This document shows, one piece after another, positions 5,308 through 26,522 of a stretch of DNA of 64,000 nt. This DNA is from Thermoanaerobaculia bacterium (GTDB lineage: Bacteria > Acidobacteriota > Thermoanaerobaculia > Gp7-AA8). The position numbers were made by a program, and so were the translations under genes. The DNA is taken from contig JBBRTB010000011.1 in the NCBI GenBank assembly GCA_038244815.1, forward strand, positions 37,050-101,049. The letters are read 5' to 3'. Positions within the stretch are counted from its first letter, which is position 1. Every line of letters begins with the position of its first letter. The notes below the pieces were generated by a model. It did no database searches. It had not been told where the DNA came from and saw only the letters and a list, made by a program, of their open reading frames with translations.

Positions 5308-6196
5308 GCCGCGAGGCCATCCAGACACCGGCGAAAAGCAGCAACGCGGCGACGGCGACGACGGGCCGGATGTGCTCGTGGAGAAAGGCCCAGGCCAGAA
5401 TCGCGGTGAGAACCGGCTGTACGTACGAGTATGCGGCGACGAGCGAGCTCTCGGCGTAGCGCAACGTCCAGGCCGTGATGACATAGGCGGCCACCGTCGG
5501 GCCGGCGATCACCGCCAGAAGTCCCAGCCACGCGCTGCCGGGGATCTCGGCCCAGTGCTCCCGCCGCAGTGCCGGCGTCGCGATCGGGAGGATGAGGACG
5601 GCGCCGATGGCGAACATTCGGGCGATGACGCGAAGCGGGGAGAGTCGGGAAACCAGCGGTTTCGACAGCACCAGGTAGAGCGCGTACGCGATGCAGTTTC
5701 CGATGATGAGCAGAGATCCCGTCAGGCTGTCGATCAGGCCGGCCAGGCCCTGGGTCCCGACGACGAGCAGCGCGCCTGCGAGCGCGAGCACGATCCCGGC
5801 GATCCTCAGTGGTGTGGCGCGTTCCATGCGCAACCCCAGCGCAACGAGCAGCGTGAAGATCGGAATGGTGGTGATGAGAATCGCCGCCACGTGCGCGCTC
5901 GTGAGCGACAGGCCGGCCAGGAACATCGTCTGATTGAGGACGACGCCGAGAACGGCCAGGCCGGCGATGAACCAGAAGTCCGAGGAGGAGATGCGCCCGG
6001 CTCCTTCGTTGCCGGTCCGGGTGCGTGGTCTCCAGGTCATGGCGTTGAGCACGATCGCTGCGCCGGCGCTTCGCAGGAACGCGAACGAGAGCGGCGCGAA
6101 CGAATGCATGGCCACCTTGGAGATGATGTAGTTGATCGAGAACAGCGCGGCGACCGTGAGCATCGCCGCGTGCACCTTGACGCTGTCAGTCCTCAC
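5279..6196 (-). CDS. DMT/EamA family transporter
   Basis: About 10 hydrophobic segments in two EamA repeats; [18 protein letters not shown]. Confidence 0.9.
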
Positions 6197-9100
6197 ACCA
6201 CACGTCGTGGTATCTCACCGGCGGTGTGACGAGCGACGTGCGCAAGCCGCGGATGTTCGGCTTGTGCAGGACGAAAAGGCGCTCGTGGAAGAGTGGCACA
6301 AGCGGCGCTTCCTGCACCACCCGCGCGTCCAGCTTGCGGTAGATGTCGGCGCGGTCGCGGGAATCCGAGGAGCGGCGGGCCTCCTCGATCTCTGCGTCGA
6401 GATCCGCCCGGTGATAGTTCAGTCCGGGCAAGGCGCTGGAGTGTCTGTGGAAAAAGATGAAGAAGAAATTGTCGGGATCGGGGAAGTCCGCGTACCAGTT
6501 GCCGCAGAAGATGTTCCCGTGGCTCTTGTGAAGCAGCGGCGCGCGTGCGTCGGTGGTGTTGTGCCGCGTCACGTTGACGCGGATGCCGGCCGCGGCCAGA
6601 TCCTCGATGATCAGCGGCACCTGCCTGGAGTGGAAGAACTCGTCCGAGTCCCAGGTGCGGTACTCGACCTCGAATCCATTTTCGTAACCCGCCTTGCGCA
6701 GAAGGCTGCGCGCCCGCTCCGGATCGTGAGCGTAGCCGCGCAGATTGGGGTCATAGCCGATCAGTCCGGGCGGCAGCAGGCCCTCCGCGACGACGCCCAG
6801 GCCACCGAACACCTCGTCGTTGATGTGCCGTCGATTGATCGCATAGTTCACGGCCTGGCGGACCTCGATGCGATCGAACGGTTTCGTCGACGAGTCGTAG
6901 CCGAGGTACGAGGTGTGGAGCTGCACCTGAGTGAGAAGGTAGGGCGCGTATCTCGGATCGCTGCGAAGCTCTCGCACGACAGTGAGCGGAATGCCGTGCG
7001 CGATGTCGAGCTCGCCGCGCAGGAACGCCTCCGCGACATCGCGCGCGGAGCGCAGATCGAGGCGGAACGTGAGCTCGTCGAGCCGCGGCTCGCCGGGGAC
7101 CCAGTAGGTATGGTTACGGACGAGCCGCACGCGCTCGCCTTCCACGACCTCGTCGATGCGGAACGGCCCGGCGCCGGTGGGGCGCAGCCGCATGTGCTCG
7201 AGGTCGTTGGTCTCCTCGCGGGGAACGATCGCGCACTCGTGCATCGAGAGCGTGGAGAGGAAAAAGGCGATGGGTTCACGGAGATGGATATCGACGGTGT
7301 GCTTGTCGACCACGACGATCCCCGTCAGCTCGCGGCTCGTCCCGTTGATCACGGCCTCGGAGCCGCTCACGCTGCGCATGATCCAGCTCGACGGTGATTG
7401 GTTTTCCGGCAGGAGAAGGCGCAGCAGGCTCTCGTACACGTCGCGGGCTTCGACCTCCCGTCCGTTGTGAAAGCGCACGCCGCGGCGAAGGTGGAAGCGG
7501 TAGTGTTGTCCCTGCTCGAGGATTTCCCAGCGCTCGGCCAGCTCGGGCCGCAGCTCTGCGCCTTCGCCGTAAGAGACGAGCTTCTGATGGACGGCCCTGG
7601 CCATGAAGCCGAGTGCCGCGGCGGTCGTGTGGATGGGATCGAATGTGAGTTTCTGCCAGAGGATGGTGGAGGTCACGGCCCGCCCGCCCTGGGTGGGCAC
7701 GGCCATGGTGAAGCGGCCCAGCTCTCCGTTGAGCAGCGTCGATTCATGCGAGAGAGCCGCGGCCATCTGATTGAGGTCGGTCACTCCGAAGCTGGCCTCG
7801 CGCGAGCCGTTCTGGATCACGTTCATGGCCTTGACGATGGCCGCGCTCTCCGCGCCCAGTACGGAGCTCGCTTCGAGCACGGCCTGCACCAGGCCAGCCA
7901 CGTTCTGCATGGCCTCGCTGATGGAGCGGCTGCCTGTTTCCTGCTCGGCCATGGCCCGTTTCAGATGACGGGTGTAGTCGCGAACCATTCCGGCCTGCTC
8001 GCCGACCTTGCGGGCGGTCTGTGACTGCTGCTGCGTGGCGGCGGCGGTCTGCTGGACCATCTTCGTGACTTCCTCGATGGCCGAGGTGGCCGCGGCGCTG
8101 CCGCTGGTCTGCTCGTCGGTGGCGCGGGCGATCTCGGCGATCGAGTTGGTGGAACGGTCCGTCAGCTCGAGGATCTTCTCGAGCACCTGCGAGGCCCGCG
8201 CGGTGAGCTGCACGCCATCGCCCACGCGGTCGGAGCTGAGGGTCATCTGTTCCGACGCTCGCTCGACGCTCCGCTGCACGTTCTGGATCAGCGTGCGGAT
8301 CTCCTCGGTCGAGGTCGAGGTGCGTTCGGCCAGGTCGCGGATCTCGTCGGCGACGACGGCGAATCCTTTGCCGCGCTCGCCGGCCTGGGCGGCGATGATG
8401 GCCGCGTTCAGCGCCAGGAGGTTCGTCTGGCCGGCCACATCGTCGATGACGCGGATGATGTCGCCGATCTCCTGGGAGCGTTCGGCGAGCTCGGCCAGCG
8501 CGTTCTGAGCCTCCTCGACCGACTGCTGGATCTTGCGCATGCCGTCGACCGTGCCGTCCACGGCGTTGCGGCCTTCGTTCGCGGCGTCGGTGACGTAACG
8601 TGCCAGCGCCGCCGACTCTCGCGCCGAACGTCCGATCTCGGAGGTGGTGGCGTTCATCTCCACCATCGAGCTGGCGGTCTGCGTGGCGAACGACGAGAAG
8701 CTCTCGGTGTTCGTGGCCACTTCGCCGATCGACGCGCTCATCTCTTCGAACGCCGTGGCCGTCTCGTCGACGAACTGCGCAAGCGTATCGGCGATGCGCA
8801 TCACTTCCTCGATACTCGCGGACATCTCCAGAATCGACGTCGAGGTGTCGTCCGCGGTCCGCGACAGTTGTTCCATGCTTTCGCGCACGGCGTTGATGGA
8901 CTGGTCGATCTGCGTCACCGACTCCGCCGTCTTCTCCGTGGAGTCGAGCTGGTCGGTGGCGCTGCGCGCCAGGATGCGGGAGCGGGCCGTGATCTGTTCG
9001 CTGACCCGGCTGACGTCGCCGGACAACTGGGTGAAGCGTCCGATGGTGCGATCGAGGTTCGTGACCAGCGCGCGCAACGCCGCCGACATCCTTGTCGAAT

Positions 9101-9407
9101 GCGTGGCCCGCACGATCTCGCGTCCCGACACCGACAGATCTCCCTCCGAGACGCGGTTGAGGAGCGCGATGGCCGACTCGCGTCGGCTGACATCACGGCG
9201 GATGAGATAGTCGAAGACGACGACGCAGAGGATTTCCGAGATCGCGCTGGCAAACAACACCTTCCACCAGATGGAGGCGGTCATGCCCGGGACGATCCAG
9301 ATCGCGACGGAGAAGAGGACGGTGAACGAGACCACCGCCACCCACATCTGCTCCCGCCGCCCGAAGTTTCGCGTGTTCACGGACCTCGCTGACACGGATG
9401 CTACCAT
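6186..9407 (-). CDS. Methyl-accepting chemotaxis protein fused to a C-terminal family-5 solute-binding domain
   Basis: Two TM helices, HAMP-like segment, [37 protein letters not shown]; then [41 protein letters not shown] 9407 chosen because the longer ORF only adds repeat-derived sequence. Confidence 0.9.
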
Positions 9408-9414
9408 CCTTGTC

Positions 9415-9517
9415 GGGTGCTGGGTGCTGGGTGCTGGGTGCTGGGTGCTGGGTTGGTCGATACGACCGAGCACCGAGCACCGAGCACCGAGCACCCAGCA
9501 CCGAGCACCGAGCACCC
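9415..9517. repeat. Inverted heptamer arrays between divergent genes
   Basis: (GGGTGCT)5, central GGTCG-ATA-CGACC, then (CCGAGCA/CCCAGCA)7. Confidence 0.95.
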
Positions 9518-9520
9518 GTC

Positions 9521-10393
9521 ATGGATACGTTCGAGAAGCGCCGAACGCTCATCGATGAGCATCTGCGGAAGATCGCGGCGGAGATTCCCGCGCCGAAGCC
9601 GCTCCTCGAGCCGCTGCGGCGGGCCATCACATCGCCGGGCAAACGCGTGCGGGGAATCCTAACGCTCGCGGTCGGGGAGGCGCTCGGGCGCAAGGCGGAG
9701 ACGTTGCTCGACGCCGCCGCGGCGATGGAAATGATCCACACGTCGTCGCTGATCCTCGACGATCTGCCTTCGATGGACGACGCCGCGATGCGCCGCGGGT
9801 CGCCTGCGCTGCACCGGCAATTCGGCGAGGACCTGGCCATCCTCACCGCGGTGGCACTCCTCAATCACGCCTACGGTCTCGTGGCCGCGAATCATCGAGC
9901 GGTACGGCCGCGAAGATGGGGTGCACACGATGTTGTCCAGCGCGTGGTCGAGGCGGTGGGGTGGGACGGCAGTGTGGCCGGCGAATCGGTCGATCTGCAC
10001 AGCGAGGGATCGATCCTCGACTTCGATACGCTGGAGTTCATTCACTCGCGCAAGACGGGCGCGCTCTTCGTCGCCGCCGCGGCGGTGGGGGCGATGCTGG
10101 CCAATGCGAACGCCGCGACGTTGCACCGCTTCGAGATCTACGCCAAGAATCTGGGACTGGCGTTTCAGATCACCGACGACATCCTCGACGTCACCTCGGA
10201 CGCCGCCCAGCTCGGCAAAGACGTGGGGAAGGACGAGCAGCGTCTGACGTTCGTCAAACTCGCCGGTGTTGAGGGTGCCCGCAAGCTGACGGCGGAGCTG
10301 GTCGACACATCGCTGGCCGCGCTGGCCCCTCTGCGCGCGGCGGCCGATCCGCTGCGTGCGCTGGCTCTTCTGGTGCGCGATCGCGTGCGATGA
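9521..10393 (+). CDS. Polyprenyl (FPP/GGPP) diphosphate synthase
   Basis: GKRVRG, HTSSLILDDLPSMDDAAMRRG, KTGALF, GLAFQITDDILD, GKDVGKD. Confidence 0.93.
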   Translation: MDTFEKRRTLIDEHLRKIAAEIPAPKPLLEPLRRAITSPGKRVRGILTLAVGEALGRKAETLLDAAAAMEMIHTSSLILDDLPSMDDAAMRRGSPALHRQFGEDLAILTAVALLNHAYGLVAANHRAVRPRRWGAHDVVQRVVEAVGWDGSVAGESVDLHSEGSILDFDTLEFIHSRKTGALFVAAAAVGAMLANANAATLHRFEIYAKNLGLAFQITDDILDVTSDAAQLGKDVGKDEQRLTFVKLAGVEGARKLTAELVDTSLAALAPLRAAADPLRALALLVRDRVR

Positions 10394-10442
10394 CGGGAAT
10401 GAAGCATCGGACTGTGATATTTACACGCCTGCTTGCGAGCAA

Positions 10443-10518
<76 letters not shown>

Positions 10519-10604
10519 CTCAACCTCTTCCAGAATCTCTTCCGAACAGGCCATGAGGTTGACGACCGGATTGAGGTCGAGGCTCGCCAGGACCCGTTCC
10601 CGAA

Positions 10605-10830
10605 TCACGGGAACGATTCGTCCATGCAGCGCGAGTAGCGCCGTCCATGCTGCCGCTCGCGCCGGATTGCCTCGAGGGCAGTCTCCCGGTTCATTCCCTG
10701 CACCGCCATGTAGAGCTGCAGGTCTCGCTCCCCAAGCTCAAAGGCAAGGGCGACGCGTTGTCCCCGGCGTCATCCGCAGGACCTCTTCGGTCTGCTCCTG
10801 GCGTAGCTGCTCGGCGAGCTTCGATGGCAT
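10605..10830 (-). pseudogene. Small helical protein gene with an apparent 1-nt frameshift
   Basis: MPSKLAEQLRQEQTEEVLRMTPG / QRVALAFELGERDLQLYMAVQGMNRETALEAIRRERQHGRRYSRCMDESFP*; removing one base from the C4 run at 10762-10765 restores the frame; TATAAC upstream. Confidence 0.6.
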
Positions 10831-10908
10831 GATTACGAGTTATAGCCGTCCTGTGCGGGACGATGGATGACGCGTGCTCCTCGCGGTGCTCACCACCGCG
10901 AATTCGCG

Positions 10909-10937
10909 TTGACAAGGCACGCGATCCACTTCACACT
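10909..10937 (+). promoter_or_regulatory. Sigma70-type promoter upstream of the riboswitch
   Basis: TTGACA-N17-CACACT. Confidence 0.65.
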
Positions 10938-10962
10938 CCCCCCGCCGCCCACCAGCGGCGAC

Positions 10963-11098
10963 TTGCCGCCTAATCCTCGGCGCCGGGGAACGGGGGAACC
11001 AAAAGCGACGGCTTGCCACCGTCCGGGGTGAATCCAGCTGCAAGCTGGTAGGGCTTCCAGCCCAAACCCGACAGCTAACCTCGTAGGCAGCCTGGAAG
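10963..11098 (+). ncRNA. c-di-AMP (ydaO/yuaA) riboswitch
   Basis: Blocks AATCC..GGAACGGGGGAACCA..GGGGTGAATCC..GGTAGGG..CCCAAACCCGACAGCTAACCTCGTAGGC in the canonical order; loop TTCCA can pair with downstream TGGAA (pseudoknot). Confidence 0.92.
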
Positions 11099-11109
11099 GC
11101 AGGCCAGAT

Positions 11110-11146
11110 CAAACGCCGCGAAGCGATTCGCGGCGTTTGTCATTTT
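11110..11146 (+). terminator. Intrinsic terminator, likely the riboswitch expression platform
   Basis: CAAACGCCGCGAA-GCGA-TTCGCGGCGTTTG followed by TCATTTT. Confidence 0.8.
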
Positions 11147-11179
11147 GTCTCCGCCCGACCACAGCCACGTAACAACTGT

Positions 11180-11488
11180 GGAGATGCGCTGGCACGTCTC
11201 GGCCGCGCCGCGGAAGCGGAAGAGTCGCTGAAGAAGGAGATCGACCTCTTTCCGCGCGACCCCAAAGCGTACAAGAACCTCATCCTGCTTTACGCGACGG
11301 AGGGACGGAACGACGAAGCGACGAAGCTGGTGTTCCAGCTCGTCGAGAGGTCACCGGTTCCACCCTCGTACGTGGCGATCTCGACGACGCTCAAGGCCAT
11401 CGGCGACATCGACGGCGCGCGATACTGGGCGGCGCAGGGGCTGAGAAAGTTTCCGTACGACGCCGCCCTCCGCAGGATGGCGCTCTAG
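11180..11488 (+). pseudogene. 5'-truncated fragment of a sulfatase-TPR paralog (C-terminal TPR region)
   Basis: GDALARLGRAAEAEESLKKEIDLFP...TLKAIGDIDGARYWAAQGLRKFPYD aligns by eye with the C-terminus of 16002-18275; no in-frame ATG/GTG/TTG back to the stop at 11084. Confidence 0.8.
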
Positions 11489-11559
11489 AGACCCGGGTAC
11501 CCGAGCCGGCAATCTGGACCCTCCGTACCGCAACGCCCGTACTTCATCATTAACATTTA

Positions 11560-11732
11560 CGTGACAATTTTGTTGCGATACGCTACATATCCATCGTGGC
11601 GCGATCTCGCTTCAACCTGCGCAATTTGAATCGATTCGCGGAATCGAGGTGTCATGCCGTCCCATCGGTAACTGTGAACAGACTGTCACGCGATGCAAAA
11701 TGACGTAACTTGACCGTGACGTATTCGTCACG
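11560..11732. promoter_or_regulatory. Three related 18-bp palindromic operator-like sites
   Basis: CGTGACAATTTTGTTGCG (11560), TGTGAACAGACTGTCACG (11673), CGTGACGTATTCGTCACG (11715). Confidence 0.55.
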
Positions 11733-11785
11733 TTGCGGTAGCATTCCGAAACATTTCGGTCCCCCCCAAACAGAAAGGAGCGCCC

Positions 11786-14700
11786 ATGAAACAGTTTCCC
11801 TCCCTCGGGAAGTCAGCGGCTCTCGCCGCCTTACTCTGCACGCTGATCGTCGTCAGTGCTCAGGCCCAGTTCCAATCGGGGAACATCTACGGGAAAGTCC
11901 TGGGGAAAGATGGTGGAGTTCTCCCCGGCGTGACGGTCACGCTGACGGGAATCGGAGCGCCGCAGACCGCGGTGACCGACTCGCAGGGAGGCTTCCGCTT
12001 CATCAATCTCTCGCCGGGCAACTACGCACTGAAAGCGGAGCTGTCGGGATACGGCTCTGCGGTGCGCAACGGCATCGGCGTGCGGATCGCGCAGAACTCC
12101 GACGTGACGATGACGCTTTCGCCATCGGTCACCGAGTCCATCACCGTATCCGCTGAAGCACCGCTGCTCGACACGCGCAAGACCGGCACGGGCATCAACG
12201 TGACCAAGGTGGAGTTGCAGAACGTGCCGAGCGGCCGCGACCCGTGGGTCATCATGCAGCAGACCCCCGGCGTGTTGATCGATCGCATCAACGTCGGAGG
12301 CAGCGAATCCGGCCAGCAGTCCGGATACGTGTCGAAAGGCGCGACGAGCGACCAGTCTTCGTGGAACGTCGACGGCGTGTCGATCACGGACGTCGGCGCG
12401 CTGGGATCGACGCCCACGTACTACGACTTCGACTCGTTCGAAGAAATGCAGATCACGACGGGTGGTTCCGATCCGCGCATCAAGACACCCGGCGTGCAGA
12501 TGAACTTCGTCACGAAGCGCGGAACGAACGACTGGAAGGGTTCGGCGCGCTGGTTCCAGACGAACAGCGGATGGCAGGCCAAGCCGACGATTCCGGCGGA
12601 AGCGACGAGCTACCTGTCCGCGGTCAATCAGATCAACAGGATCGAAGACCGCGGGTTCGAGCTCGGCGGTCCGATCCTGAAAGACAGGCTGTGGTTCTGG
12701 GGCTCCTTGTCCAGGAACAACATCAACCTGCTTACGGCCACAAAGAACATCAGCGGCCAGCGCGCGTTCGATAAAACGCTGCTGGCAAACGAAAACATCA
12801 AGATCAACGCGCAGCCATTCTCCTCGAACAGTTTTGTCCTCACCGACATGTACGGCGACAAGGTCAAAATCGGGCGCAACGTCAGTCCGACGCGTCCGCC
12901 GGAGACCGCGTACAACCAGGCTGACGTTTACCGGAACAAGGAGACAGGGAGTCTCGCCAACCCTACAGTCTGGAAGGCTGAAGACACGCAGATCTTCGGC
13001 TCGAGTCTGTACCTGACGGGCATGTATTCGGAAGTCCAGGGCGGCTTCCATCTCGTGGGCGATGCCGGTGCCGGTTGCACGACCGCGGCATGCACTCTCG
13101 CCGGTCCCGTGGCGACCCTGGATCCGGCCGGCGTGTGGCATCGGAACTTTGTCGCCTATGAGAGCGTCCGTCCGTCCAGTCAGGCGCGGATCGACGGCTC
13201 GAAGTTCTTCGACATCGGTACGTCCAACAACGAGCTGAAGTTCGGCTTCGGCTATCGCAATGCCGGCGTCAATTCCGAGTCTGCCTGGGCGGGGAATCAG
13301 TACACGGTCATGTACGACGACCAGGGCAACGGTGGTGTGCAGTTAATGCGCTCACCCATCACGAATTTCCACTACGGCGTGAAGTATCAGGACGCCTACA
13401 TCGGAGACACGGTCCAACTGGGGAATCTCACGGTACAGGGATCGGTCCGTTACGATGCGCAGACGGGACGTGCCGACGCAGGTTCGCTCGGCGCCAATCC
13501 GATTATTCCGGAGCTCCTTCCCGCCGTTTCCTGGAATGCAATCAGTGGCCTGAAATGGACCAACATCTCGCCGCGCATCGGCCTCACGTACGCGCTCGGT
13601 GCCGCGAAGCGCACATTGCTGCGCGCCTCGTACAACCGCTACGCGGGGCAGCTTGGCGGCAGCGATGTGTACAAGGTGTCTCCGGGCTACTACAACTACG
13701 AGTACTTCTACTTCACCGACCTGAACGGCGATAGAGTCGCGCAGCGGAACGAAATCGACTTTGCCTCTGGCATCATCAGTTCCGGCGGCATCGATCCAAA
13801 CAATCCAACGGTTCCCCAGCAGTACTATCGCTGGGCAAAGGACTTCAAAGCTCCGACGACCGACGAGTTCATCGTCGGATTCGAGACCGAGCTGATGACG
13901 AACTTCACGGTGGGCGTGAATGGCACCTACCGGACCCTGAAGAACTTCAGTTGGACGATCGGCGAGCATCACCAGGGCCAGGGTGACGTTTACTCTCCGG
14001 CGGATTACGAGGCGGCGACACCGAAGACGACCACTCTGCCGAACGGGCAGACGGTGACGATCCCTTATTACGTACTGAAGTCAGGCGTCTCGTCGCCGAC
14101 GTTCTTCATCATCGAGGACCGGCCCGACTATCACCAGACGTACGATTCGATCGACCTGTTCGCGACGCGCCGGCTCACGGATCGCTGGATGATGCGCGGC
14201 AACTTCACGTTCCAGGACTGGAAGCAGCACATCGGTCCCGGCGCCATTGCCGATCCCAGTCAGTCGCGAGGCGCCTACGGCTGCACAACCTGCGACAACT
14301 CCGACGTGATCATCGGCTCAGGTACGGGCAGCGGCGCGAAAGGCGGCATCTACATCAACTCGAAGTGGGCCTACAACCTCACGGGCACATATCAGATCCC
14401 AGTGATTGAGACCAACTTCGGAGTCAACCTCGCCGGACGCCAGGGCTACCCGGTCCCGTATGTGTACCGGATCACGGGCAGTGGGAACAACGGTCAGTCG
14501 TCGTCGAATACGAAGTACCTCCTCGCCACGAGCGACATAACGCAGTTCCGTAATCCGGCGACCACTGAGCTCGACCTGCGTCTGGCGAAGGACATTCGTG
14601 TCTATCGCGGCGGTGCACTCACGCTGTCGATCGACATGTTCAATGTCCTGGACAATCGGACGATCCTGCAGCGCAACGTGGCCCGGTTGAACAACAACAA

Positions 14701-14788
14701 TGCCGGCGGTACTTTTGCCTCCAGCAACAACATCACCGAACTGCAGTCGCCGCGTGTGTTCCGTCTCGGTGCGCGGTTCACGTACTAG
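11786..14788 (+). CDS. Oar-like TonB-dependent receptor with carboxypeptidase-regulatory-like N-domain
   Basis: AAGGAG RBS, signal peptide, LPGVTVTLTG..GNYALKAELSGY, plug motif DSFEEMQITTGG..VTKRGTN, C-terminal PRVFRLGARFTY. Confidence 0.92.
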   Translation: MKQFPSLGKSAALAALLCTLIVVSAQAQFQSGNIYGKVLGKDGGVLPGVTVTLTGIGAPQTAVTDSQGGFRFINLSPGNYALKAELSGYGSAVRNGIGVRIAQNSDVTMTLSPSVTESITVSAEAPLLDTRKTGTGINVTKVELQNVPSGRDPWVIMQQTPGVLIDRINVGGSESGQQSGYVSKGATSDQSSWNVDGVSITDVGALGSTPTYYDFDSFEEMQITTGGSDPRIKTPGVQMNFVTKRGTNDWKGSARWFQTNSGWQAKPTIPAEATSYLSAVNQINRIEDRGFELGGPILKDRLWFWGSLSRNNINLLTATKNISGQRAFDKTLLANENIKINAQPFSSNSFVLTDMYGDKVKIGRNVSPTRPPETAYNQADVYRNKETGSLANPTVWKAEDTQIFGSSLYLTGMYSEVQGGFHLVGDAGAGCTTAACTLAGPVATLDPAGVWHRNFVAYESVRPSSQARIDGSKFFDIGTSNNELKFGFGYRNAGVNSESAWAGNQYTVMYDDQGNGGVQLMRSPITNFHYGVKYQDAYIGDTVQLGNLTVQGSVRYDAQTGRADAGSLGANPIIPELLPAVSWNAISGLKWTNISPRIGLTYALGAAKRTLLRASYNRYAGQLGGSDVYKVSPGYYNYEYFYFTDLNGDRVAQRNEIDFASGIISSGGIDPNNPTVPQQYYRWAKDFKAPTTDEFIVGFETELMTNFTVGVNGTYRTLKNFSWTIGEHHQGQGDVYSPADYEAATPKTTTLPNGQTVTIPYYVLKSGVSSPTFFIIEDRPDYHQTYDSIDLFATRRLTDRWMMRGNFTFQDWKQHIGPGAIADPSQSRGAYGCTTCDNSDVIIGSGTGSGAKGGIYINSKWAYNLTGTYQIPVIETNFGVNLAGRQGYPVPYVYRITGSGNNGQSSSNTKYLLATSDITQFRNPATTELDLRLAKDIRVYRGGALTLSIDMFNVLDNRTILQRNVARLNNNNAGGTFASSNNITELQSPRVFRLGARFTY

Positions 14789-14904: not shown

Positions 14905-16005
14905 GTGGAGGCTCCATTGCGCAGATTCGCTGTCGTTGCATTCACGTTGCTGTCATCGCTCGTCGCGATTTCTGCCGGCGCGCAGATCCGTGGTACGGGC
15001 CGCCTGCAGGGAAACGTCTTCGATAAGAACACCGGCAAACCGGTCGCTGGAGCAACGGTCTCGATCACGACGCCGGAAAGCGGCACGCGGCCGATCGTCG
15101 CGAAGACTGACGCAAGAGGACATTGGGCAGCGCTCGGCATGACGTCAGGTCAGTGGAACATTGATGTCAGTGCGCCTGGATACGGGACGAGCCGCGGGAC
15201 GGCAATGGTCAGCGAAGTCACCACGCCCCCGCCGATCAAAATCGAGCTCGACCCCGAAGTGAAGGAGGCTGCGCCGGCCGAGGTGGCGCCGGCCAGTCCC
15301 AGCGTGCCGAAGGAAGCAGTCGATGCGATCAAAGAGGGCCAGGAGCTGCTGCGAGTCAAAGCGGGCGACGTCGTCACCAACACGCAGGCCACGTCACCTG
15401 GAAGCACGACCGCGGTGTCGCACACTGCCACCGCCGATGAAGTCAAGGACAACGCGAAGCGCGCCGTCGCCGATCTCGAGAAGGCTTTTCCGATGATTCC
15501 AGATACAACGCCTGAGCTCCGCGACGTCCGAAACCAGGTCCTGGCCGTCCTCGCTCAGGCGTACTACAAAGCCGGTGCTCTCGAGGACGCGATCGCCACT
15601 CTGGAGAAGCTCGATGCGCTCGATCCTCCGACGGCGACGCCGGACGCGGCACACGCGACGCGCGACGTTCTTCTCGCGAACCTGTATCTCGAGAACGCAC
15701 AGCTCGATGAGGGCAAGGCGCTGCTCGAGAAACTTCCTGAGACCGCGATCAGCGATCCGACCGCGTACGTCAACATCGGCATTCTGTTTCTGAACAAGAA
15801 GGACCCGAACACCGCCACGAAGTACTTCACGAAAGCGATCCAGATGAACGGCAAGCAAGCCGAGAGCTACTACTATCGCGGTCTGGCCGAGGTGCAGATG
15901 AACAAGTACGGGGCGGCGAAAGCGGACTTTCAGCAAGTCCTCGCGCTGTCGCCCGACTCATCGGAAGCGCGTGACGCGAAGCAGATGCTCGCCAGCCTGA
16001 AATGA
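14905..16005 (+). CDS. Exported protein: carboxypeptidase-regulatory-like domain plus TPR repeats
   Basis: Signal peptide; GKPVAGATV..GQWNIDVSAPGY; TPRs AYVNIG, SYYYRGLA..AKADFQQVLALSP. Confidence 0.85.
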   Translation: MEAPLRRFAVVAFTLLSSLVAISAGAQIRGTGRLQGNVFDKNTGKPVAGATVSITTPESGTRPIVAKTDARGHWAALGMTSGQWNIDVSAPGYGTSRGTAMVSEVTTPPPIKIELDPEVKEAAPAEVAPASPSVPKEAVDAIKEGQELLRVKAGDVVTNTQATSPGSTTAVSHTATADEVKDNAKRAVADLEKAFPMIPDTTPELRDVRNQVLAVLAQAYYKAGALEDAIATLEKLDALDPPTATPDAAHATRDVLLANLYLENAQLDEGKALLEKLPETAISDPTAYVNIGILFLNKKDPNTATKYFTKAIQMNGKQAESYYYRGLAEVQMNKYGAAKADFQQVLALSPDSSEARDAKQMLASLK

Positions 16006-18275
16006 ATCCCGATGGTCATTCCGAGCCGCGAAGACGGCCAGGAATCTGGGCGGGGGTGGCGCCCCACCACCCAGATTCCTCGCGCTCTGCGGCGCTCGGA
16101 ATGACGGTCGTATTGACCGTCATCTTTTCGCTCACGGCCTGCCACAAGCTCAGCGCCCCGTCGCGCACGACCCCCGTCGTGTTGATCTCGATCGACACGT
16201 TGCGATCGGATCACCTTCCGGCGTACGGCTACAAAGGCGTGGCCACGCCGAACATCGACCGCCTGCGCGCAGATTCGATTCTCTACCGCCGCGCGTACAG
16301 CCACATTCCACTGACGTTGCCATCGCATTCGTCGATCCTGACCGGCATGCTTCCGAACGACAACGGAGTGCGCGACAACGTCGGCTTCCGCCTTTCCGAT
16401 TCGATTCCGACGCTGCCGGAGCTGCTCGAGAAGAATGGATATGTGACCGGAGGCGCAGTCTCGGCGTTCGTTCTTCGACGCGAGACTGGAATCGCGCGCG
16501 GCTTCGACTTCTTCGACGACGAAGTGGAGCCCCTCGGCAACTCAGATGAGACCGCGATCGGGCGGGTCCAGCGCAACGGCCGCGAAACACTGCATGTCCT
16601 CGAGAAATGGCTCGATGGAAATTCGCAGAAACCGTTCTTCGCGTTTCTCCACCTGTACGAACCGCACACGCCCTACACACCGCCCGAGCCGTATCTGAGC
16701 CGTTATCGCAACCGGTACGACGGCGAGATCGCTTTCGCCGATGCCATCGTCGGCGAGTTTCTCGATTACCTGAAGCAGCACGACCTTTACGACAAAGCGC
16801 TGATCGTTCTGCTCTCCGACCATGGCGAAGGCCTGAACGATCACGGCGAACAGGAGCACGGAATCTTCCTCTACCGCGAGGCGCTGCAGGTTCCCCTGAT
16901 TTTGAAGTTGCCGAAGAACGCAAAGGCCGGCACGACGGTCGATTGGCCGGTGCAGCTGGTCGACGTCTTTCCGACAATCGCGGAGCGGACGGCCACCCCG
17001 CTGCCGAGTGATCGACGGCGTACGGGAGAATCACTCCTCGCTGTCGGCAAAGATCGACCGCAGCGCCTGATCTACTCCGAGACGTTTTATCCGAAGTTCC
17101 ATTTCGGATGGAGCGATCTGCATTCGTTGATCGCCGGGAACGATCACTACATCCGCGCTCCGCAGCCGGAGCTGTACGATCTCGCCGCCGATCCGGCTGA
17201 GAAGCACAACGGCATCGAGCAGAACCGCCGTGCGTATGTCCGCCTGCGTCAGGCCATCGAGCCGTTCGTGCGTGAGGCGCCGGCGCCGTCCAGCATCGAT
17301 TCGGAAGACGCCGCAAAGCTCGCTGCTCTTGGGTATGTCGGTTCAACCGTGTCGGTTCCCGCCGGAACGGTGCTGCCGGACCCGAAAACGACGAGCGGAA
17401 CATTTCAGAAGATTCGTCTTGCCTTCACCTGGTACCGGAACGGAAAAGAGGACGACGCGCTCCGGCTCACAGATCAGCTTCTCGCCGGCAATTCGCAGAT
17501 CACTGACCTCTGGGACCTGAAATACAAAATCCTCGTCAAGATGGACCGAAAGCGGGAAGCGGTCGATGCGGCGAAGGAGGGTCTGCGGAAAGTACCCACG
17601 GCACTGGCCCTGCTGCACGACGTCGCTACCGGCGCGCTGGAGCTCGGCGATCTCGACACCGCACAGCAGCACGCCGAACTGGCGTTGAAACTCGAGCCCG
17701 GCAAAGCGCACGACATTCTGTCGCACATCTGGCTGCAGCGCGGAAACCTCGACCGCGCCGAAGCGGAAGCAAAGTTGTCGCTGGAGACGTCGCACGATCC
17801 GACCAGTGCTCTCATGCAGCTCGCCAATGCGGAAAAGGATCGCGGGAATCTGCAGGCGGCACTCGCCTATATCGATCGTGCGGTCGACATTTCCAGGCGC
17901 AAACGAGCTCCAGCGCAGGACCTCCACTTCGCTCGCGGCGATATCCTCGCGCGCCTCCAAAGAAACGCGGAGGCGGAGCAGGAGTTTCGTGCGGAAATCG
18001 AACACTATCCGTCGTCCGCCACCGCTTATTCTTCGCTGATCCTGCTGCTGGCCTCGACCGGCCGGTCGAACGAGGCGACGCCTCTGGTTTATGCGCTGAT
18101 CAAGGCATCGCCGGGGCCGCGTGCATACGTCGTCGTGTCGGAGACGCTGAAGGCTGTGGGCGACAACCAGGGCGCGGTGTATTGGGCGTATCAGGGTCTC
18201 GAGCGCTATCCGAAGGATCCTGAACTTCGCGGATTACCGAAAAAGCTTTCGCGGCCACTGCGCAGCAGCGGGTGA
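16002..18275 (+). CDS. Sulfatase-like / alkaline-phosphatase-superfamily hydrolase with C-terminal TPRs, possible lipoprotein
   Basis: ISIDTLRSD, TPNID, TLPSHSSILTG, HLYEPHTPY, YDGEI, SDHGE, ELYDL..DP.E; LTAC lipobox-like. Start is ATG 16002 (ATGA overlap) or ATG 16101. Confidence 0.9.
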   Translation: MNPDGHSEPRRRPGIWAGVAPHHPDSSRSAALGMTVVLTVIFSLTACHKLSAPSRTTPVVLISIDTLRSDHLPAYGYKGVATPNIDRLRADSILYRRAYSHIPLTLPSHSSILTGMLPNDNGVRDNVGFRLSDSIPTLPELLEKNGYVTGGAVSAFVLRRETGIARGFDFFDDEVEPLGNSDETAIGRVQRNGRETLHVLEKWLDGNSQKPFFAFLHLYEPHTPYTPPEPYLSRYRNRYDGEIAFADAIVGEFLDYLKQHDLYDKALIVLLSDHGEGLNDHGEQEHGIFLYREALQVPLILKLPKNAKAGTTVDWPVQLVDVFPTIAERTATPLPSDRRRTGESLLAVGKDRPQRLIYSETFYPKFHFGWSDLHSLIAGNDHYIRAPQPELYDLAADPAEKHNGIEQNRRAYVRLRQAIEPFVREAPAPSSIDSEDAAKLAALGYVGSTVSVPAGTVLPDPKTTSGTFQKIRLAFTWYRNGKEDDALRLTDQLLAGNSQITDLWDLKYKILVKMDRKREAVDAAKEGLRKVPTALALLHDVATGALELGDLDTAQQHAELALKLEPGKAHDILSHIWLQRGNLDRAEAEAKLSLETSHDPTSALMQLANAEKDRGNLQAALAYIDRAVDISRRKRAPAQDLHFARGDILARLQRNAEAEQEFRAEIEHYPSSATAYSSLILLLASTGRSNEATPLVYALIKASPGPRAYVVVSETLKAVGDNQGAVYWAYQGLERYPKDPELRGLPKKLSRPLRSSG
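16015..16105. repeat. Palindromic GTCATTCCGAGC...GCTCGGAATGAC element
   Basis: 12-bp terminal inverted repeats and inner GGAATCTGGG/CCCAGATTCC arms. Confidence 0.8.
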
Positions 18276-22536: not shown

Positions 22537-22563
22537 GAACGCCCGTTATACTTTTCGCAACAC

Positions 22564-23250
22564 GTGGATCTACCCGAATTCGAGCGGTGCATCGGCTATA
22601 CCTTCCAGCGGCGCGACCTGCTCACACGCGCGGTCACGCACAAGTCGTATTCGCACGAGGCCCGGCAGGGGGACGTCCGTCACAACGAGACGTTCGAATT
22701 CCTCGGCGACTCGGTGCTGGGCTTCGTGATCGGCGACATGCTGTTCCGCCACTTTCCCGAGCTCGATGAGGGCGCGCTTTCGAAGATGAAGGCCTACCTC
22801 GTCAGCGCCACGAGCCTGGCCGCGAAGGCCCGCCACTTCGGCATGGGCGACGTGATTCTGCTCGGCGTCGGTGAGGAGAAGACCGGCGGCCGCAGGAAAG
22901 ACTCGCTGCTCGCCAACCTCTACGAGGCCATGCTCGCGGCGATCTATCTCGACGGCGGCATCGACGCGGCCCGGCGTGTCATCGAGCAGTCTTTCCTCGC
23001 CGACATCCAGTCCATCGACGAGGAGGACCTGCTTTTCCAGGATTACAAGACGGCGCTACAGGAGCTCGCGCAGGGGAAGGGGTTCCCGCTGCCGGAATAC
23101 AACGTCATCGGTGAAGTCGGTCCCGACCACGACAAGACGTTCATCGTGGAGGTGCGCGTGGGCAGCCTGTCGACGCGCGGCGAGGGCTCTTCGAAGAAAG
23201 AGGCACAGCAGGAAGCGGCGAAGCGTGCGCTGGCAGAGTTCGCTGCTTAG
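22564..23250 (+). CDS. rnc: Ribonuclease III
   Basis: THKSY, NETFEFLGDSVL, EA..AAIYLDGG, DYKTALQE, GPDHDK.F, SKKEAQQ.AA. Confidence 0.96.
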   Translation: MDLPEFERCIGYTFQRRDLLTRAVTHKSYSHEARQGDVRHNETFEFLGDSVLGFVIGDMLFRHFPELDEGALSKMKAYLVSATSLAAKARHFGMGDVILLGVGEEKTGGRRKDSLLANLYEAMLAAIYLDGGIDAARRVIEQSFLADIQSIDEEDLLFQDYKTALQELAQGKGFPLPEYNVIGEVGPDHDKTFIVEVRVGSLSTRGEGSSKKEAQQEAAKRALAEFAA

Positions 23251-23298
23251 GCCTCGGATGGACGGGAACCGAGGCCCGAGGCCCGAGGCCCGAGGCCT
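23250..23298. repeat. Heptamer repeat
   Basis: GGCCTCGG ... (CCGAGGC)4. Confidence 0.85.
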
Positions 23299-23299
23299 G

Positions 23300-25617: not shown

Positions 25618-25631
25618 AATCCAGCCAGCGA

Positions 25632-26522
25632 ATGCCTGGCAGGGAGGGGACTCGGCGCACTTCGTTCCGCACGATCGCGGCCCTGACCGCCGTTCCCATC
25701 GTCGGACTCTTTCTGATCGCCTGCTGGCTGCTGTTCCTCCGTTCCTCGAAGCCGGCGGTGAACAAGGTCTCGGGCCTCGGGCCTCGGGCCTCGGTTGTCC
25801 CGCGACCTCAACCCAAACCGAGAACCGAGGACCGAGGCCCGGGGACCGAGGCTTCCAAGCCACCGGCCCCCGCCATCGTCATCATCATCGACGACGTCGG
25901 CTATGGCGGTCAGCATCTCGATCGGGCCATGGCCATCGATCCCAACTTCAACTTCGCCGTGCTGCCGAATTCGACGCGAGGATCGGAGGCGGCGGAACAA
26001 CTGAACGAGCGAGGCTTCGAGATCCTCTGTCATCTGCCGATGCAGCCGCGGGACGGCAGAATCTCGCCGGGACCGCACGCGGTGCTGACGTCGATGTCTG
26101 ACGGTGAGATCGCCAGCACCACGCGCGAGAACATCGCCGCGGTGCCGCACGCGCGCGGAGTCAACAACCACATGGGATCGCTGGCCACCGCCGACCGGCG
26201 GGTGATGACCGACGTCATGCGCGCTCTGCCACAGGGAATGTATTTCATCGACTCGAAAACGGGTGGCCGCTCGATCGCGGCGGAGGTGGCGCGGGAACTG
26301 AATGTGAGGACGGCCACGCGGCAGGTCTTTCTCGACGATGTTCTGACCGATGCGGGCGTGAGGAAGCAGCTGGCGCTGTTGTCGGCGGCAGCGAAGAGCA
26401 AGGGAGTGGCCATCGGCATCGGACATCCGCACGACGTGACGCTGCGCGTTCTGGAGGCGGAAGTGCCCCTTCTTCGCGCGCGCGGATTCCATTTCGTGCG
26501 CGCCAGCGAAGTCGTGAACTGA
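25632..26522 (+). CDS. Divergent polysaccharide deacetylase (YibQ-like)
   Basis: IIIDDVG, HLPMQP, NNHMGS, FIDSKT, VFLD, AIGIGHP. Confidence 0.92.
   Translation: MPGREGTRRTSFRTIAALTAVPIVGLFLIACWLLFLRSSKPAVNKVSGLGPRASVVPRPQPKPRTEDRGPGTEASKPPAPAIVIIIDDVGYGGQHLDRAMAIDPNFNFAVLPNSTRGSEAAEQLNERGFEILCHLPMQPRDGRISPGPHAVLTSMSDGEIASTTRENIAAVPHARGVNNHMGSLATADRRVMTDVMRALPQGMYFIDSKTGGRSIAAEVARELNVRTATRQVFLDDVLTDAGVRKQLALLSAAAKSKGVAIGIGHPHDVTLRVLEAEVPLLRARGFHFVRASEVVN
25766..25852. repeat. Heptamer hairpin inside the deacetylase CDS
   Basis: (GGCCTCG)n ... (CCGAGGA/C)n, translated SGLGPRAS...[12 protein letters not shown]. Confidence 0.85.

What the first reader, a model, noticed from the sequence alone, without database searches (positions are those of the whole stretch)
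10909..11488. Intact c-di-AMP riboswitch with no intact gene directly downstream
Seen: promoter, full ydaO-type aptamer and strong terminator. The 5' segment GCGGCGACTTG (10955-10965) could pair with the terminator left arm CAAACGCCGC as an antiterminator, consistent with an OFF switch. Next comes only a start-less TPR fragment, and the TonB receptor begins about 640 nt after the terminator. Established: these switches typically control cell-wall and osmolyte genes, mostly in Gram-positive bacteria and cyanobacteria. Inference: either it controls read-through into an outer-membrane receptor cluster, or it was orphaned by deletion, or it acts as a stand-alone ~200-nt c-di-AMP-binding RNA.
Basis: partly seen in the sequence, partly recalled or inferred. 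Interest (0 to 1): 0.72.

Follow-up and report, generated by a model that had tools for sequence, protein, structure and literature searches.

The report
Self-contained c-di-AMP riboswitch RNA gene
A genuine c-di-AMP-sensing RNA sits here as a complete little gene of its own (promoter, sensor, stop signal) beside a deletion scar, and its relatives keep it intact whatever gene lies next to it, so it may work as a free-standing signalling RNA and not only as a switch for a neighbouring gene.

Summary
Window 10957-11104 (+) matches Rfam RF00379 (c-di-AMP/ydaO) at 79.4 bits (cut-off 38). It is followed by a perfect 13-bp terminator (11110-11139) and then a start-less TPR remnant.

It is the genome's only copy, and the genome encodes one DAC cyclase. 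A congener has riboswitch -> TonB-type receptor 1 -> sulfatase-TPR 1 -> receptor 2. Here receptor 1 and most of sulfatase-TPR 1 (about 5 kb) are missing, and the remnant is that gene's C-terminus. So it was orphaned by deletion.

The unit is single-copy in 100 of 124 genomes of this uncultured Thermoanaerobaculia family. In 59 loci it precedes a receptor (34), precedes rnc-M23-S41 (11), converges on a polyprenyl synthase (9) or is in another setting (5). These contexts interleave on its tree.

A conserved promoter, a covarying 5'-terminal hairpin and the terminator travel with it. The neighbouring genes appear to have their own promoters.

- Best reading (0.45): an autonomous RNA of about 205 nt that binds c-di-AMP.
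- Main rival (0.38): a classical cis OFF switch gating read-through.

No expression data could be obtained. It is a new variant of a known kind; interest 0.57.

The parts
10443..10515 (+). tRNA-Phe gene, the usual neighbour of the riboswitch unit in this family
   Evidence: Rfam tRNA, 72.3 bits. ARAGORN calls tRNA-Phe here and beside the unit in most relatives.
10528..10900 (.). 373-nt stretch absent from the congener, between the tRNA and the riboswitch promoter. It holds two out-of-frame pieces of a small ORF on the minus strand (10605-10839).
   Evidence: blastn synteny with L023 stops at 10527 and resumes at 10901. No Pfam or NCBIfam match. No other copy in the genome.
10909..10937 (+). 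Promoter of the unit: -35 TTGACA (10909-10914), 17-nt spacer, -10 CACACT (10932-10937). The predicted start is near 10943-10945.
   Evidence: Sequence. The homologous columns are conserved as TTGACx-N17-TAsACT in relatives. The consensus scanner did not call it. The start site is inferred, not measured.
10943..10960 (+). 5'-terminal hairpin: CGCCGC (10943-10948) pairs with GCGGCG (10955-10960), with a 6-nt loop. It lies outside the Rfam model's paired region.
   Evidence: Present in the MFE of the window RNA. Predicted by RNAalifold on 59 sequences. 96.6% of cells are paired, there are 6 cells with compensatory change, and 0 of 500 shuffles reach the score.
10957..11104 (+). c-di-AMP (ydaO/yuaA) aptamer
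   Evidence: RF00379, 79.4 bits against a cut-off of 38, full-length. Aptamer helices covary across 59 relatives.
11110..11148 (+). Intrinsic terminator: a 13-bp stem (11110-11122 / 11127-11139), loop GCGA, tail UCAUUUUGU. The predicted RNA 3' end is near 11146-11148.
   Evidence: The homologous hairpin is in the full-length MFE of 59 of 59 family sequences.
11149..11182 (.). Deletion junction: similarity to the congener's riboswitch unit ends at 11145, and homology to sulfatase-TPR C-termini begins near 11180.
   Evidence: Read-level support was not obtainable.
11183..11488 (+). Start-less C-terminal remnant (101 codons plus stop) of a sulfatase-TPR gene
   Evidence: Translation. TPR_14 scores 36.1 bits. 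It is 50-55% identical to three full-length paralogues in the genome and 53% identical to the congener's gene at the matching position. No in-frame start before GTG 11330.
11548..11785 (+). The receptor gene's own leader: extended -10-like TGCGATACGCT (about 11575-11586) and RBS GAAAGGAG before ATG 11786
   Evidence: Alignment with the leaders of 22 relatives' receptor genes. Motif-level inference only. No Rfam family match.
11786..14788 (+). TonB-type outer-membrane receptor (1000 aa), orthologous to the congener's SECOND receptor
   Evidence: Pfam CarboxypepD_reg, OMP_b-brl_4 and weak Plug. It is 71.7% nt identical to the congener's receptor 2 and 65.0% to receptor 1.

Best explanation
The element is a bona fide c-di-AMP aptamer packaged as a self-contained transcription unit. 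A sigma-70-type promoter precedes a 6-bp hairpin at the very 5' end, the aptamer, and a strong intrinsic terminator, giving a predicted RNA of about 205 nt (about 10943-11148).

My preferred reading is that this terminated RNA is itself the functional product. It would be a stable small RNA that binds c-di-AMP made by the genome's single DAC cyclase. It would act independently of whichever gene lies downstream, either as a buffer or sponge for the nucleotide or as a ligand-dependent trans-acting RNA.

In this genome its former neighbours (a TonB-type receptor and most of a sulfatase-TPR gene) were removed by a deletion of about 5 kb that ends just past the terminator. The unit stayed intact.

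Shown: the aptamer's identity, the anatomy of the unit, the deletion, family-wide single-copy conservation, and variable contexts. Inferred: the transcript ends, ligand binding, stability, and any trans or sponge activity.
For: (1) Conservation. The unit is the only copy in this genome. It is found in 100 of 124 family genomes, 73 of 84 high-quality ones and 35 of 40 genera, with one copy each except one genome with two (this tally includes four unpublished genomes).

(2) Contexts in 59 family loci: 34 precede a receptor gene, 11 precede rnc-M23-S41, 9 point into the 3' end of a convergent polyprenyl synthase with no co-directional gene, and 5 are other. All 9 convergent copies keep the terminator, and the 4 of them examined keep the promoter. 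They score 70.8-82 bits.

(3) On the unit's own tree the contexts interleave. Well-supported branches force at least 6, 5 and 3 changes for the three contexts, and receptor-type and rnc-type loci are sisters within one genus. The unit is constant while the neighbours change.

(4) Neighbours look independently transcribed. rnc has a TATACT-like -10 lying 7-14 nt before its TTG/GTG start in 11 of 11 loci, and likewise in this window at 22547-22552 with GTG at 22564. That implies leaderless mRNAs, which a read-through transcript would not translate well. Receptor leaders carry an extended -10-like motif in about 16 of 23 rows and their own RBS in 23 of 23.

(5) A receptor of this subfamily was not found (E <= 1e-50) in 4 of 5 non-receptor-context genomes that still keep the unit.

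(6) The 5'-terminal hairpin covaries, and the terminator is in the MFE in 59 of 59. Both ends are structured, as in stable small RNAs.

(7) Between this genome and its congener the unit is 88.4% identical, against 75.4% for the upstream block and 65-72% for the receptor genes. It is intact despite losing its neighbour.

(8) Precedent: merRNA of Bdellovibrio is a c-di-GMP riboswitch RNA with no downstream ORF, proposed to act as a sponge (PMC3627812, passages read).
Against: - Every characterised member of this class is a cis-regulator, so the prior for an autonomous role is low.
- 45 of 59 loci do have a co-directional gene within about 700 nt.
- The 6-bp core of a possible antiterminator is complementary in 53 of 59 sequences. 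The terminator's GC core is almost invariant. This hints at a constraint beyond hairpin formation, such as regulated termination.
- The convergent loci could regulate the polyprenyl synthase by antisense read-through.
- The promoter calls for the neighbouring genes are motif-level only.
- There are no expression data. The only RNA-library matches were short contigs of the conserved aptamer from other organisms.
- All genomes are MAGs of uncultured bacteria.
- The 40 extra loci were picked by me for long contigs and genus spread, not at random. Two genera are over-sampled.
Confidence: 0.45

Rival explanations
1. Classical cis-acting OFF riboswitch. Transcription from the 10909-10937 promoter stops at the 11110-11139 terminator when c-di-AMP is bound. 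At low c-di-AMP it reads through into whatever lies downstream: the receptor cluster in most relatives, the rnc-M23-S41-deacetylase cell-wall operon in others. Here, after the deletion, it would gate read-through across the TPR remnant into the second receptor cluster.
For: - It belongs to a riboswitch class known for cis control of transport, osmotic and cell-wall genes (PMC7266159, passages read).
- 45 of 59 loci have a co-directional gene downstream. In 5 of these rnc starts only 54-74 nt after the aptamer.
- M23, S41 and deacetylase genes fit the class's cell-wall regulon.
- The 5' segment GCGGCG is complementary to the terminator's left arm in 53 of 59 sequences, and two terminator-core variants (L047, L055) remain compatible with it.
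- The near-invariant terminator core suggests alternative pairing.
Against: - 9 of 59 loci are convergent with no gene to control.
- The downstream gene changes repeatedly, even within a genus.
- rnc looks leaderless with its own -10 in 11 of 11 loci. Receptors have their own promoter-like motif and leaders of 150-340 nt.
- In 6 sequences, including the congener, the candidate antiterminator has a central mismatch while the 5' hairpin is compensated.
- Truncated folds pair the terminator arm with the 5' region in 27 sequences, with scattered aptamer sites in 31, and with nothing in 1 of 59.
- In this window 647 nt and a pseudogene separate the terminator from the next start codon.
Confidence: 0.38
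2. Riboswitch-gated antisense or interference element. The relevant output is read-through transcription that collides with, or is antisense to, neighbouring genes: the polyprenyl synthase in the convergent loci, or the promoters lying just after the terminator elsewhere.
For: - In nine convergent loci the polyprenyl synthase 3' end lies 101-406 nt after the aptamer.
- Receptor and rnc promoter-like motifs lie within tens of nucleotides of the terminator.
- Riboswitch-controlled antisense RNA is a described mechanism, mentioned in PMC3627812 (discussion passage read).
Against: It needs a different target in each context. No conserved complementarity was examined or shown. The strong terminator predicts little read-through.
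Confidence: 0.08
3. Non-functional relic: the riboswitch lost its target through the deletion and is simply too young to have decayed.
For: The adjacent receptor 1 and most of sulfatase-TPR 1 are gone. The -10 hexamer here (CACACT) is weaker than the family's TAsACT.
Against: - It scores 79.4 bits, in the middle of the family's range of 68-85.
- Promoter, 5' hairpin, aptamer and terminator are all intact.
- It is 88.4% identical to the congener's copy, more than the flanking genes.
- Relatives without any receptor neighbour keep it.
Confidence: 0.06
4. Assembly artefact: the junction at about 11146-11182 is a chimeric join in a metagenome-assembled contig, and the real genome has the full receptor 1 / sulfatase-TPR 1 pair.
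For: The genome is a MAG of 63 contigs. The riboswitch unit is conserved enough among co-occurring relatives to mislead an assembler.
Against: - Both sides of the junction are collinear with the congener in the same order and orientation.
- No repeat spans the junction.
- The remnant is only 50-55% identical to the genome's other sulfatase-TPR genes, so it is not a collapsed paralogue.
Confidence: 0.03

Closest known systems
c-di-AMP riboswitch (ydaO/yuaA motif, Rfam RF00379), e.g. the Bacillus subtilis ydaO/kimA leader
   Same: The aptamer matches the full model at 79.4 bits. Its helices covary in 59 relatives. It is followed by an intrinsic terminator, as is usual for the class (recalled). 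A DAC cyclase is encoded in the genome.
   Different: - The host is an uncultured Thermoanaerobaculia (Acidobacteriota) lineage (record titles).
- It is the only copy in the genome, and it is not in front of a K+, osmolyte or amino-acid transporter gene.
- A covarying 5'-terminal hairpin lies outside the Rfam model.
- The downstream gene varies (receptor, rnc operon, or a convergent gene), and here it is a pseudogene remnant.
- In another family of the same class (locus L025) the riboswitch does precede a Kup K+ transporter, which is the classical arrangement.
merRNA of Bdellovibrio bacteriovorus (massively expressed c-di-GMP riboswitch RNA)
   Same: Both are cyclic-dinucleotide riboswitch aptamers carried on discrete RNAs with no conserved ORF downstream. 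The authors proposed that merRNA stores or sponges the nucleotide (PMC3627812, passages read). This is the model for the autonomous reading here.
   Different: merRNA binds c-di-GMP, is 445 nt long, was found by its extreme expression, and is restricted to Bdellovibrio. Here there are no expression data at all. The ligand class is c-di-AMP, the RNA is about 205 nt, and the conservation spans a whole family.
Terminated riboswitches acting in trans (Listeria SreA/SreB), and riboswitch-controlled antisense RNAs
   Same: Both show that a riboswitch transcript ended at its own terminator, or its read-through, can have a function other than controlling the gene downstream. The concept is cited in the discussion of PMC3627812. 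The Listeria names are recalled, not read.
   Different: Those RNAs still sit in front of the genes they also control in cis. No trans target or antisense target has been identified here.
Four-segment transcription attenuators (trp-leader type 1:2 / 2:3 / 3:4 pairing)
   Same: Four GC-rich segments are present: A 10943-10948, B 10955-10960, C 11114-11119 and D 11130-11135. A resembles C and B resembles D, so A:B plus C:D, or B:C, can be drawn.
   Different: There is no leader peptide, and the aptamer lies between segments 2 and 3. Covariation supports A:B and C:D but only weakly supports B:C. The resemblance is formal only, and the comparison is from recall.

Membership tests
c-di-AMP riboswitch aptamer (Rfam RF00379) | Covariance-model score at or above the curated gathering score, over the full model | tested here: met
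   79.4 bits against 38, model positions 1-134 of 134, E 8e-17. Reproduced.
c-di-AMP riboswitch aptamer (Rfam RF00379) | Conserved helices supported by compensatory changes in relatives | tested here: met
   RNAalifold on 59 sequences gives 51 pairs, 18 of them with compensatory change. For example, columns 151-153 with 165-167 show 14-28 double changes, and 101:206 shows 12.
c-di-AMP riboswitch aptamer (Rfam RF00379) | Binds c-di-AMP | not testable with these tools
   Needs in-line probing or ITC on the 10943-11105 RNA.
c-di-AMP riboswitch aptamer (Rfam RF00379) | The organism makes c-di-AMP (DAC-domain cyclase present) | tested here: met
   PF02457 matches at 115.3 bits against a cut-off of 27, once in the genome, in an open frame of 379 aa.
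Cis-regulatory riboswitch (functional definition) | Lies in the 5' leader of the gene it controls, with a start codon shortly after the expression platform | tested here: not met
   In this window the next start codon is 647 nt after the terminator, beyond a start-less pseudogene remnant. In the family this is met in at most 5 of 59 loci at short range (rnc 54-74 nt after the aptamer), and there rnc has its own -10.
Cis-regulatory riboswitch (functional definition) | Ligand-dependent alternative pairing (antiterminator against terminator) | tested here: inconclusive
   The candidate B:C core is paired in 96.3% of cells, but with 1 compensatory cell and 13 unpaired cells. The rival A:B hairpin has 6 compensatory cells. 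Truncated folds show no consistent partner.
Stand-alone riboswitch RNA (merRNA-like) | Own promoter and own terminator, with no conserved downstream ORF | tested here: met
   The promoter and terminator are conserved. The downstream gene differs among 59 loci and is on the opposite strand in 9.
Stand-alone riboswitch RNA (merRNA-like) | Accumulates as a discrete, abundant RNA | not testable with these tools
   Only short contigs of the conserved aptamer from other organisms were found in three RNA libraries. No raw reads of this organism were available.
TonB-dependent receptor (downstream gene 11786-14788) | Plug domain plus outer-membrane beta-barrel | tested here: inconclusive
   OMP_b-brl_4 scores 78.7 bits and CarboxypepD_reg 57.4 bits, both above cut-off. 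Plug scores only 18.5 bits, below its cut-off of 23.9.

The most novel reading that the evidence does not exclude
This is the first example of a free-standing c-di-AMP riboswitch RNA. It would be a single-copy small-RNA gene of about 205 nt, conserved across an entire family of soil Acidobacteriota. Its terminated transcript, protected by a 5' hairpin and a 3' terminator, would be the functional molecule. It would either buffer the essential but toxic second messenger c-di-AMP, or act in trans in a ligand-dependent way, and would not switch the adjacent gene.
Probability: 0.4. Interest if true: 0.82.

Novelty: new variant of a known kind. Interest (0 to 1): 0.57.

Why it matters
c-di-AMP is an essential and also toxic second messenger, and cells have to hold its level within narrow bounds. 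All known c-di-AMP riboswitches are thought to work in cis on transport, osmolyte or cell-wall genes.

If a whole bacterial family keeps one aptamer as an independent RNA gene, RNA could act as a receptor, buffer or trans-regulator for c-di-AMP. So far only the c-di-GMP merRNA of Bdellovibrio hints at such a role for a cyclic dinucleotide.

If the cis reading is right instead, the finding links c-di-AMP to TonB-type outer-membrane uptake clusters and to an rnc-M23-S41 envelope operon in Acidobacteriota. That would extend the regulon of this messenger into a didermic soil phylum.

Either way the unit is small enough for direct in vitro tests (binding and termination assays), even though the hosts are uncultured.

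Tried and rejected
- Expression evidence. One search for RNA runs gave three libraries with 0.04 of the sampled words. Laying them showed only short contigs (47-185 nt, one of 458) over the conserved aptamer (10956-11099), mostly 85-95% alike, from other organisms. Nothing lay on the promoter, the terminator tail or the junction. This says nothing about ends, strand, level or read-through, and no habitat is inferred.
- Promoter scanner. It found no sigma-70 site in 10300-12200. The promoter rests on the alignment with relatives.
- Antiterminator search. I folded transcripts cut before the terminator's 3' arm and found no consistent partner. MFE folding of a pseudoknotted aptamer is unreliable, so this is weak evidence.
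- P1 extension (10962-10967 with 11098-11103). 80.5% of cells are paired with no significant covariation, and 19-20 sequences appear to use another register that MAFFT does not align. I left it as a possibility.
- Regex tally on 80 polyprenyl-anchored loci. It gave 19 plus-strand and 5 minus-strand hits, but 2 of the minus hits were false positives inside the MCP-SBP coding region. It is too crude and is not used for counts.
- Other copies of 10516-10909 or 11140-11785 in the genome: none, so there is no sign of a repeated mobile element.
- Pfam and NCBIfam on the small frameshifted ORF (10605-10769, minus strand): no match.
- Literature. The searches 'c-di-AMP riboswitch' + Acidobacteria (3 papers, none on this), ydaO + riboswitch + TonB (1 paper, judged unrelated from its title and abstract, not opened) and 'c-di-AMP riboswitch' + orphan (12 papers, where 'orphan' means unknown ligand) found no description of such a unit. 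Only the held open-access library was searched.
- Earlier notes of this scan: none near this place or similar to this sequence.
Full report
**1. What is there**

cmscan of the whole window finds two RNAs above curated thresholds. One is a tRNA at 10443-10515. The other is the c-di-AMP riboswitch aptamer RF00379 at 10957-11104 (+), at 79.4 bits against a gathering score of 38 (E 8e-17), covering the whole 134-position model without truncation (repeated).

Four bases after the match lies a perfect 13-bp inverted repeat (11110-11122 / 11127-11139, 4-nt loop), followed by TCATTTTGTC. It is the only strong inverted repeat between 10400 and 12000.

Upstream, TTGACA (10909-10914) and CACACT (10932-10937) are 17 nt apart. 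The consensus scanner does not call this a promoter, because the -10 matches only 3 of 6. The same columns in relatives read TTGAC(A/T/C)-N17-TA(C/G)ACT.

A start 6-8 nt after the -10 would put the 5' end at about 10943-10945. This is exactly where a 6-bp hairpin begins: CGCCGC 10943-10948 pairs with GCGGCG 10955-10960. The predicted RNA 10943-11148 (206 nt) folds to -93.5 kcal/mol (z = -2.9), with this hairpin and the terminator both in the MFE.

**2. The downstream 'fragment'**

The frame containing the TPR-like sequence is open from 11102 to the TAG at 11486-11488. It has no ATG/GTG/TTG before GTG 11330. Residues encoded from about 11180 onward match the last ~105 residues of the window's own sulfatase-TPR protein (16002-18275) at 50%, and TPR_14 scores 36.1 bits.

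Genome-wide, the fragment is 50-55% identical to three full-length paralogues, so it is not a recent copy of any of them. The next gene (ATG 11786, 1000 aa) carries CarboxypepD_reg and OMP_b-brl_4 domains and a sub-threshold Plug match. It is a TonB-type outer-membrane receptor.

**3. Orphaned by a deletion**

A congener (G005; loci L023 and L041) is collinear with the window from the MCP-SBP gene through the polyprenyl synthase and tRNA-Phe (75.4% over 6.9 kb). The riboswitch unit itself is 88.4% identical (L023 6945-7189 = window 10901-11145).

In the congener the unit is followed by receptor 1, sulfatase-TPR 1, receptor 2, a CarboxypepD_reg-TPR gene and sulfatase-TPR 2. The window's receptor matches the congener's receptor 2 better (71.7%) than receptor 1 (65.0%), and everything after it is collinear with the congener's second set.

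The window therefore lacks receptor 1 and roughly the first 650 codons of sulfatase-TPR 1, about 5.1 kb in the congener's coordinates. The start-less fragment occupies exactly the position of that gene's C-terminus (53% identity). A remnant shows loss in this lineage, not gain in the other.

The junction lies between 11146 and about 11182. Nothing repeated spans it. I could not check it against DNA reads, so a chimeric join is unlikely but not excluded. The window also has 373 extra bases (10528-10900) between the tRNA and the riboswitch promoter.

**4. The unit in the genome and in relatives**

- It is the only RF00379 match in this 98.4%-complete genome, which encodes one DAC-domain cyclase (115.3 bits).
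- Among 40 relatives, 17 of 24 family members and 1 of 16 genomes from other families of the class have a match. That one outsider (L025) has it in front of a Kup K+ transporter gene, the classical arrangement.
- In the family as a whole, 100 of 124 genomes have it (73 of 84 high-quality genomes; 35 of 40 genera), with one copy each except G006 with two. This tally includes the unpublished genomes G107, G059, G108 and G104, and nothing else in this report rests on them.
- Four of the five other genomes of the window's genus have no match. These are fragmented assemblies of 260-720 contigs, so absence is not shown.
- Records of close relatives are titled Thermoanaerobaculia or Acidobacteriota MAGs. 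No cultured member was seen.

**5. Context**

I examined 59 family loci from 58 genomes. These were the window, the 18 family loci among the 20 places (the other two being the window itself and L025), and 40 more. I chose those 40 for long contigs and genus spread, so the sample is not random and two genera are over-represented. I used tblastn with nine reference proteins, plus ARAGORN and Pfam.

- The unit precedes a co-directional receptor gene in 34 loci. The tblastn match starts 153-579 nt after the aptamer in relatives and 670 nt here.
- It precedes rnc-M23 peptidase-S41 protease(-polysaccharide deacetylase) in 11 loci. In 5 of these rnc lies 54-74 nt after the aptamer. In 4 a tRNA-Phe lies in between.
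- It points into the 3' end of a convergent polyprenyl synthase gene in 9 loci from nine genera, with no co-directional gene.
- It is in other or unresolved settings in 5 loci.

In the window itself, rnc-M23-S41-deacetylase lies at 22555-26516, beyond the receptor cluster. The backbone is therefore polyprenyl synthase - tRNA-Phe - unit - [variable receptor cluster] - rnc operon.

A maximum-likelihood tree of the unit (207 columns; 20 of 56 inner branches unresolved) interleaves the contexts. Well-supported branches alone force at least 6, 5 and 3 changes for the receptor, rnc and convergent labels. Receptor-type and rnc-type loci are sisters within one genus.

A receptor of this subfamily was not found at E <= 1e-50 in four of five non-receptor-context genomes that keep the unit. 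The unit is the constant, and the neighbours come and go. The deletion in this window is one more instance of that flux.

**6. Do the neighbours need it?**

In all 11 rnc-type loci a TATACT-like hexamer (8 TATACT, 2 GATACT, 1 TACACT) lies 7-14 nt before the TTG/GTG start of rnc, whatever the distance to the riboswitch. The window has TATACT at 22547-22552 and GTG at 22564.

This is the signature of a leaderless or near-leaderless mRNA from its own promoter. There is no Shine-Dalgarno sequence, so a read-through transcript would be a poor template for rnc. This is my inference from motifs.

Receptor genes have leaders of 150-340 nt with an extended -10-like TGnTAAGCT motif soon after the terminator (about 16 of 23 aligned rows, by eye). 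The leaders also share a conserved inverted GATTCAA...TTGAATC pair, and GAAAGGAG before the ATG in 23 of 23 rows. These are motif-level observations, not mapped starts.

**7. Structure and switching**

RNAalifold on 59 sequences predicts the 5' hairpin, the aptamer helices and the terminator: 51 pairs, 18 with compensatory changes.

- The 5' hairpin is paired in 96.6% of cells, with 6 compensatory cells (CG to UA at two positions). No shuffle of 500 reaches its covariation score. Sliding by 3 columns still gives 84.5% paired, which reflects the repetitive GCC/GGC sequence.
- In six sequences, including the congener, the 5' segment has changed. There its hairpin partner compensates and the terminator arm does not.
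- Two rare terminator-core variants (L047, L055) are compensated within the terminator and also stay compatible with the 5' segment.
- The terminator is in the full-length MFE in 59 of 59 sequences (complete in 56). In folds cut before its 3' arm, the 5' arm pairs with the 5' region in 27 sequences, with scattered aptamer positions in 31, and with nothing in 1.
- A possible extension of P1 (10962-10967 with 11098-11103) is paired in 80.5% of cells without significant covariation.

The GC core of the terminator is almost invariant (57-59 of 59 at seven pairs), while aptamer hairpins covary freely. I cannot explain this. It may reflect alternative pairing.

Overall, a ligand-responsive platform is neither demonstrated nor excluded. 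The default predicted product is a terminated RNA of 200-224 nt.

**8. Interpretation**

I put 0.45 on the unit being an autonomous gene for a c-di-AMP-binding small RNA. The grounds are:
- its own promoter;
- structured 5' and 3' ends;
- single-copy conservation across a family;
- survival in convergent contexts and after loss of its neighbour;
- neighbours that seem self-sufficient.

The closest precedent is merRNA of Bdellovibrio, a c-di-GMP riboswitch RNA without a downstream ORF, for which a sponge or storage role was proposed (PMC3627812; passages read).

I put 0.38 on the classical reading, a cis OFF switch gating read-through. It is backed by the strong prior for this class, whose gene associations are K+ and amino-acid transporters, cell-wall remodelling and osmotic shock (PMC7266159, passages read). 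It is also backed by the co-directional genes in 45 of 59 loci, and by the cell-wall flavour of the M23/S41/deacetylase operon.

Antisense or interference (0.08), a decaying relic (0.06) and an assembly artefact (0.03) are minor.

**9. Limits**

- There are no expression data of any use.
- All genomes are MAGs.
- Transcript ends, promoters of neighbouring genes and leaderless starts are inferred from sequence.
- The context sample is not random, and related genomes are not independent.
- Supplements of the cited papers were not consulted.
- Literature searches in the held library found no description of a c-di-AMP riboswitch in Acidobacteriota, next to TonB-type receptors, or as a stand-alone RNA.

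Noticed in passing
window 9415-9453 and 9465-9516: Two heptamer tandem arrays (GGGTGCT x5.6, ACCGAGC x7.4) lie between the MCP-SBP gene and the polyprenyl synthase. Similar heptamer arrays, some as inverted pairs, sit just after the riboswitch terminator in relatives, for example L011, L002 and L017 and L042. This looks like the heptamer-repeat class noted elsewhere in this genome (earlier finding e1-1253171).
   Followed up: partly
window 10528-10900 (minus-strand ORF pieces 10738-10839 and 10605-10769): A 373-nt stretch absent from the congener lies next to tRNA-Phe. It holds two consecutive out-of-frame pieces of a small ORF (about 75 aa if joined), possibly a remnant of something once integrated at the tRNA. 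It has no Pfam or NCBIfam match and no second copy in the genome.
   Followed up: partly
leaders of the receptor genes: window about 11548-11785; relatives, e.g. L037 7190-7390: The receptor genes next to the riboswitch have conserved 5' leaders of about 150-340 nt. These contain an inverted GATTCAA...TTGAATC pair, a GGCCG..ATCTGCA box and GAAAGGAG-N6-ATG. The window's version matches no Rfam family. This may be an undescribed leader RNA for this receptor subfamily.
   Followed up: partly
window 22547-22566; relatives: rnc (RNase III) appears to be expressed as a leaderless or near-leaderless mRNA. A TATACT-like -10 lies 7-14 nt before a TTG/GTG start in 11 of 11 relatives and in the window, with no Shine-Dalgarno sequence.
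   Followed up: partly
window 6186-9515 (-): A protein of about 1060-1100 aa combines an MCP signalling domain (PF00015) with a family-5 solute-binding domain (PF00496). It is conserved next to the polyprenyl synthase in most relatives. This is an unusual fusion for a chemoreceptor-like protein.
   Followed up: no
G006: loci L029 and L034: One relative has two riboswitch units. One is convergent with the polyprenyl synthase. A second, on a 16-kb contig, lies in front of a receptor-TPR-sulfatase set and groups with the receptor-type units of other genera on the tree. This could be acquisition of a riboswitch-receptor module or a mis-binned contig.
   Followed up: no
window 18369-20408 (+): A 679-aa ORF after the sulfatase-TPR gene has no Pfam match at E <= 0.01. 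It is collinear with the congener.
   Followed up: no
L030 (G009), upstream of the riboswitch: Fic-domain and TIR-domain genes lie between tRNA-Phe and the riboswitch in one relative, and a Phd/YefM antitoxin gene lies there in another (L035). The tRNA-Phe side of the unit seems to be an insertion hot spot.
   Followed up: no
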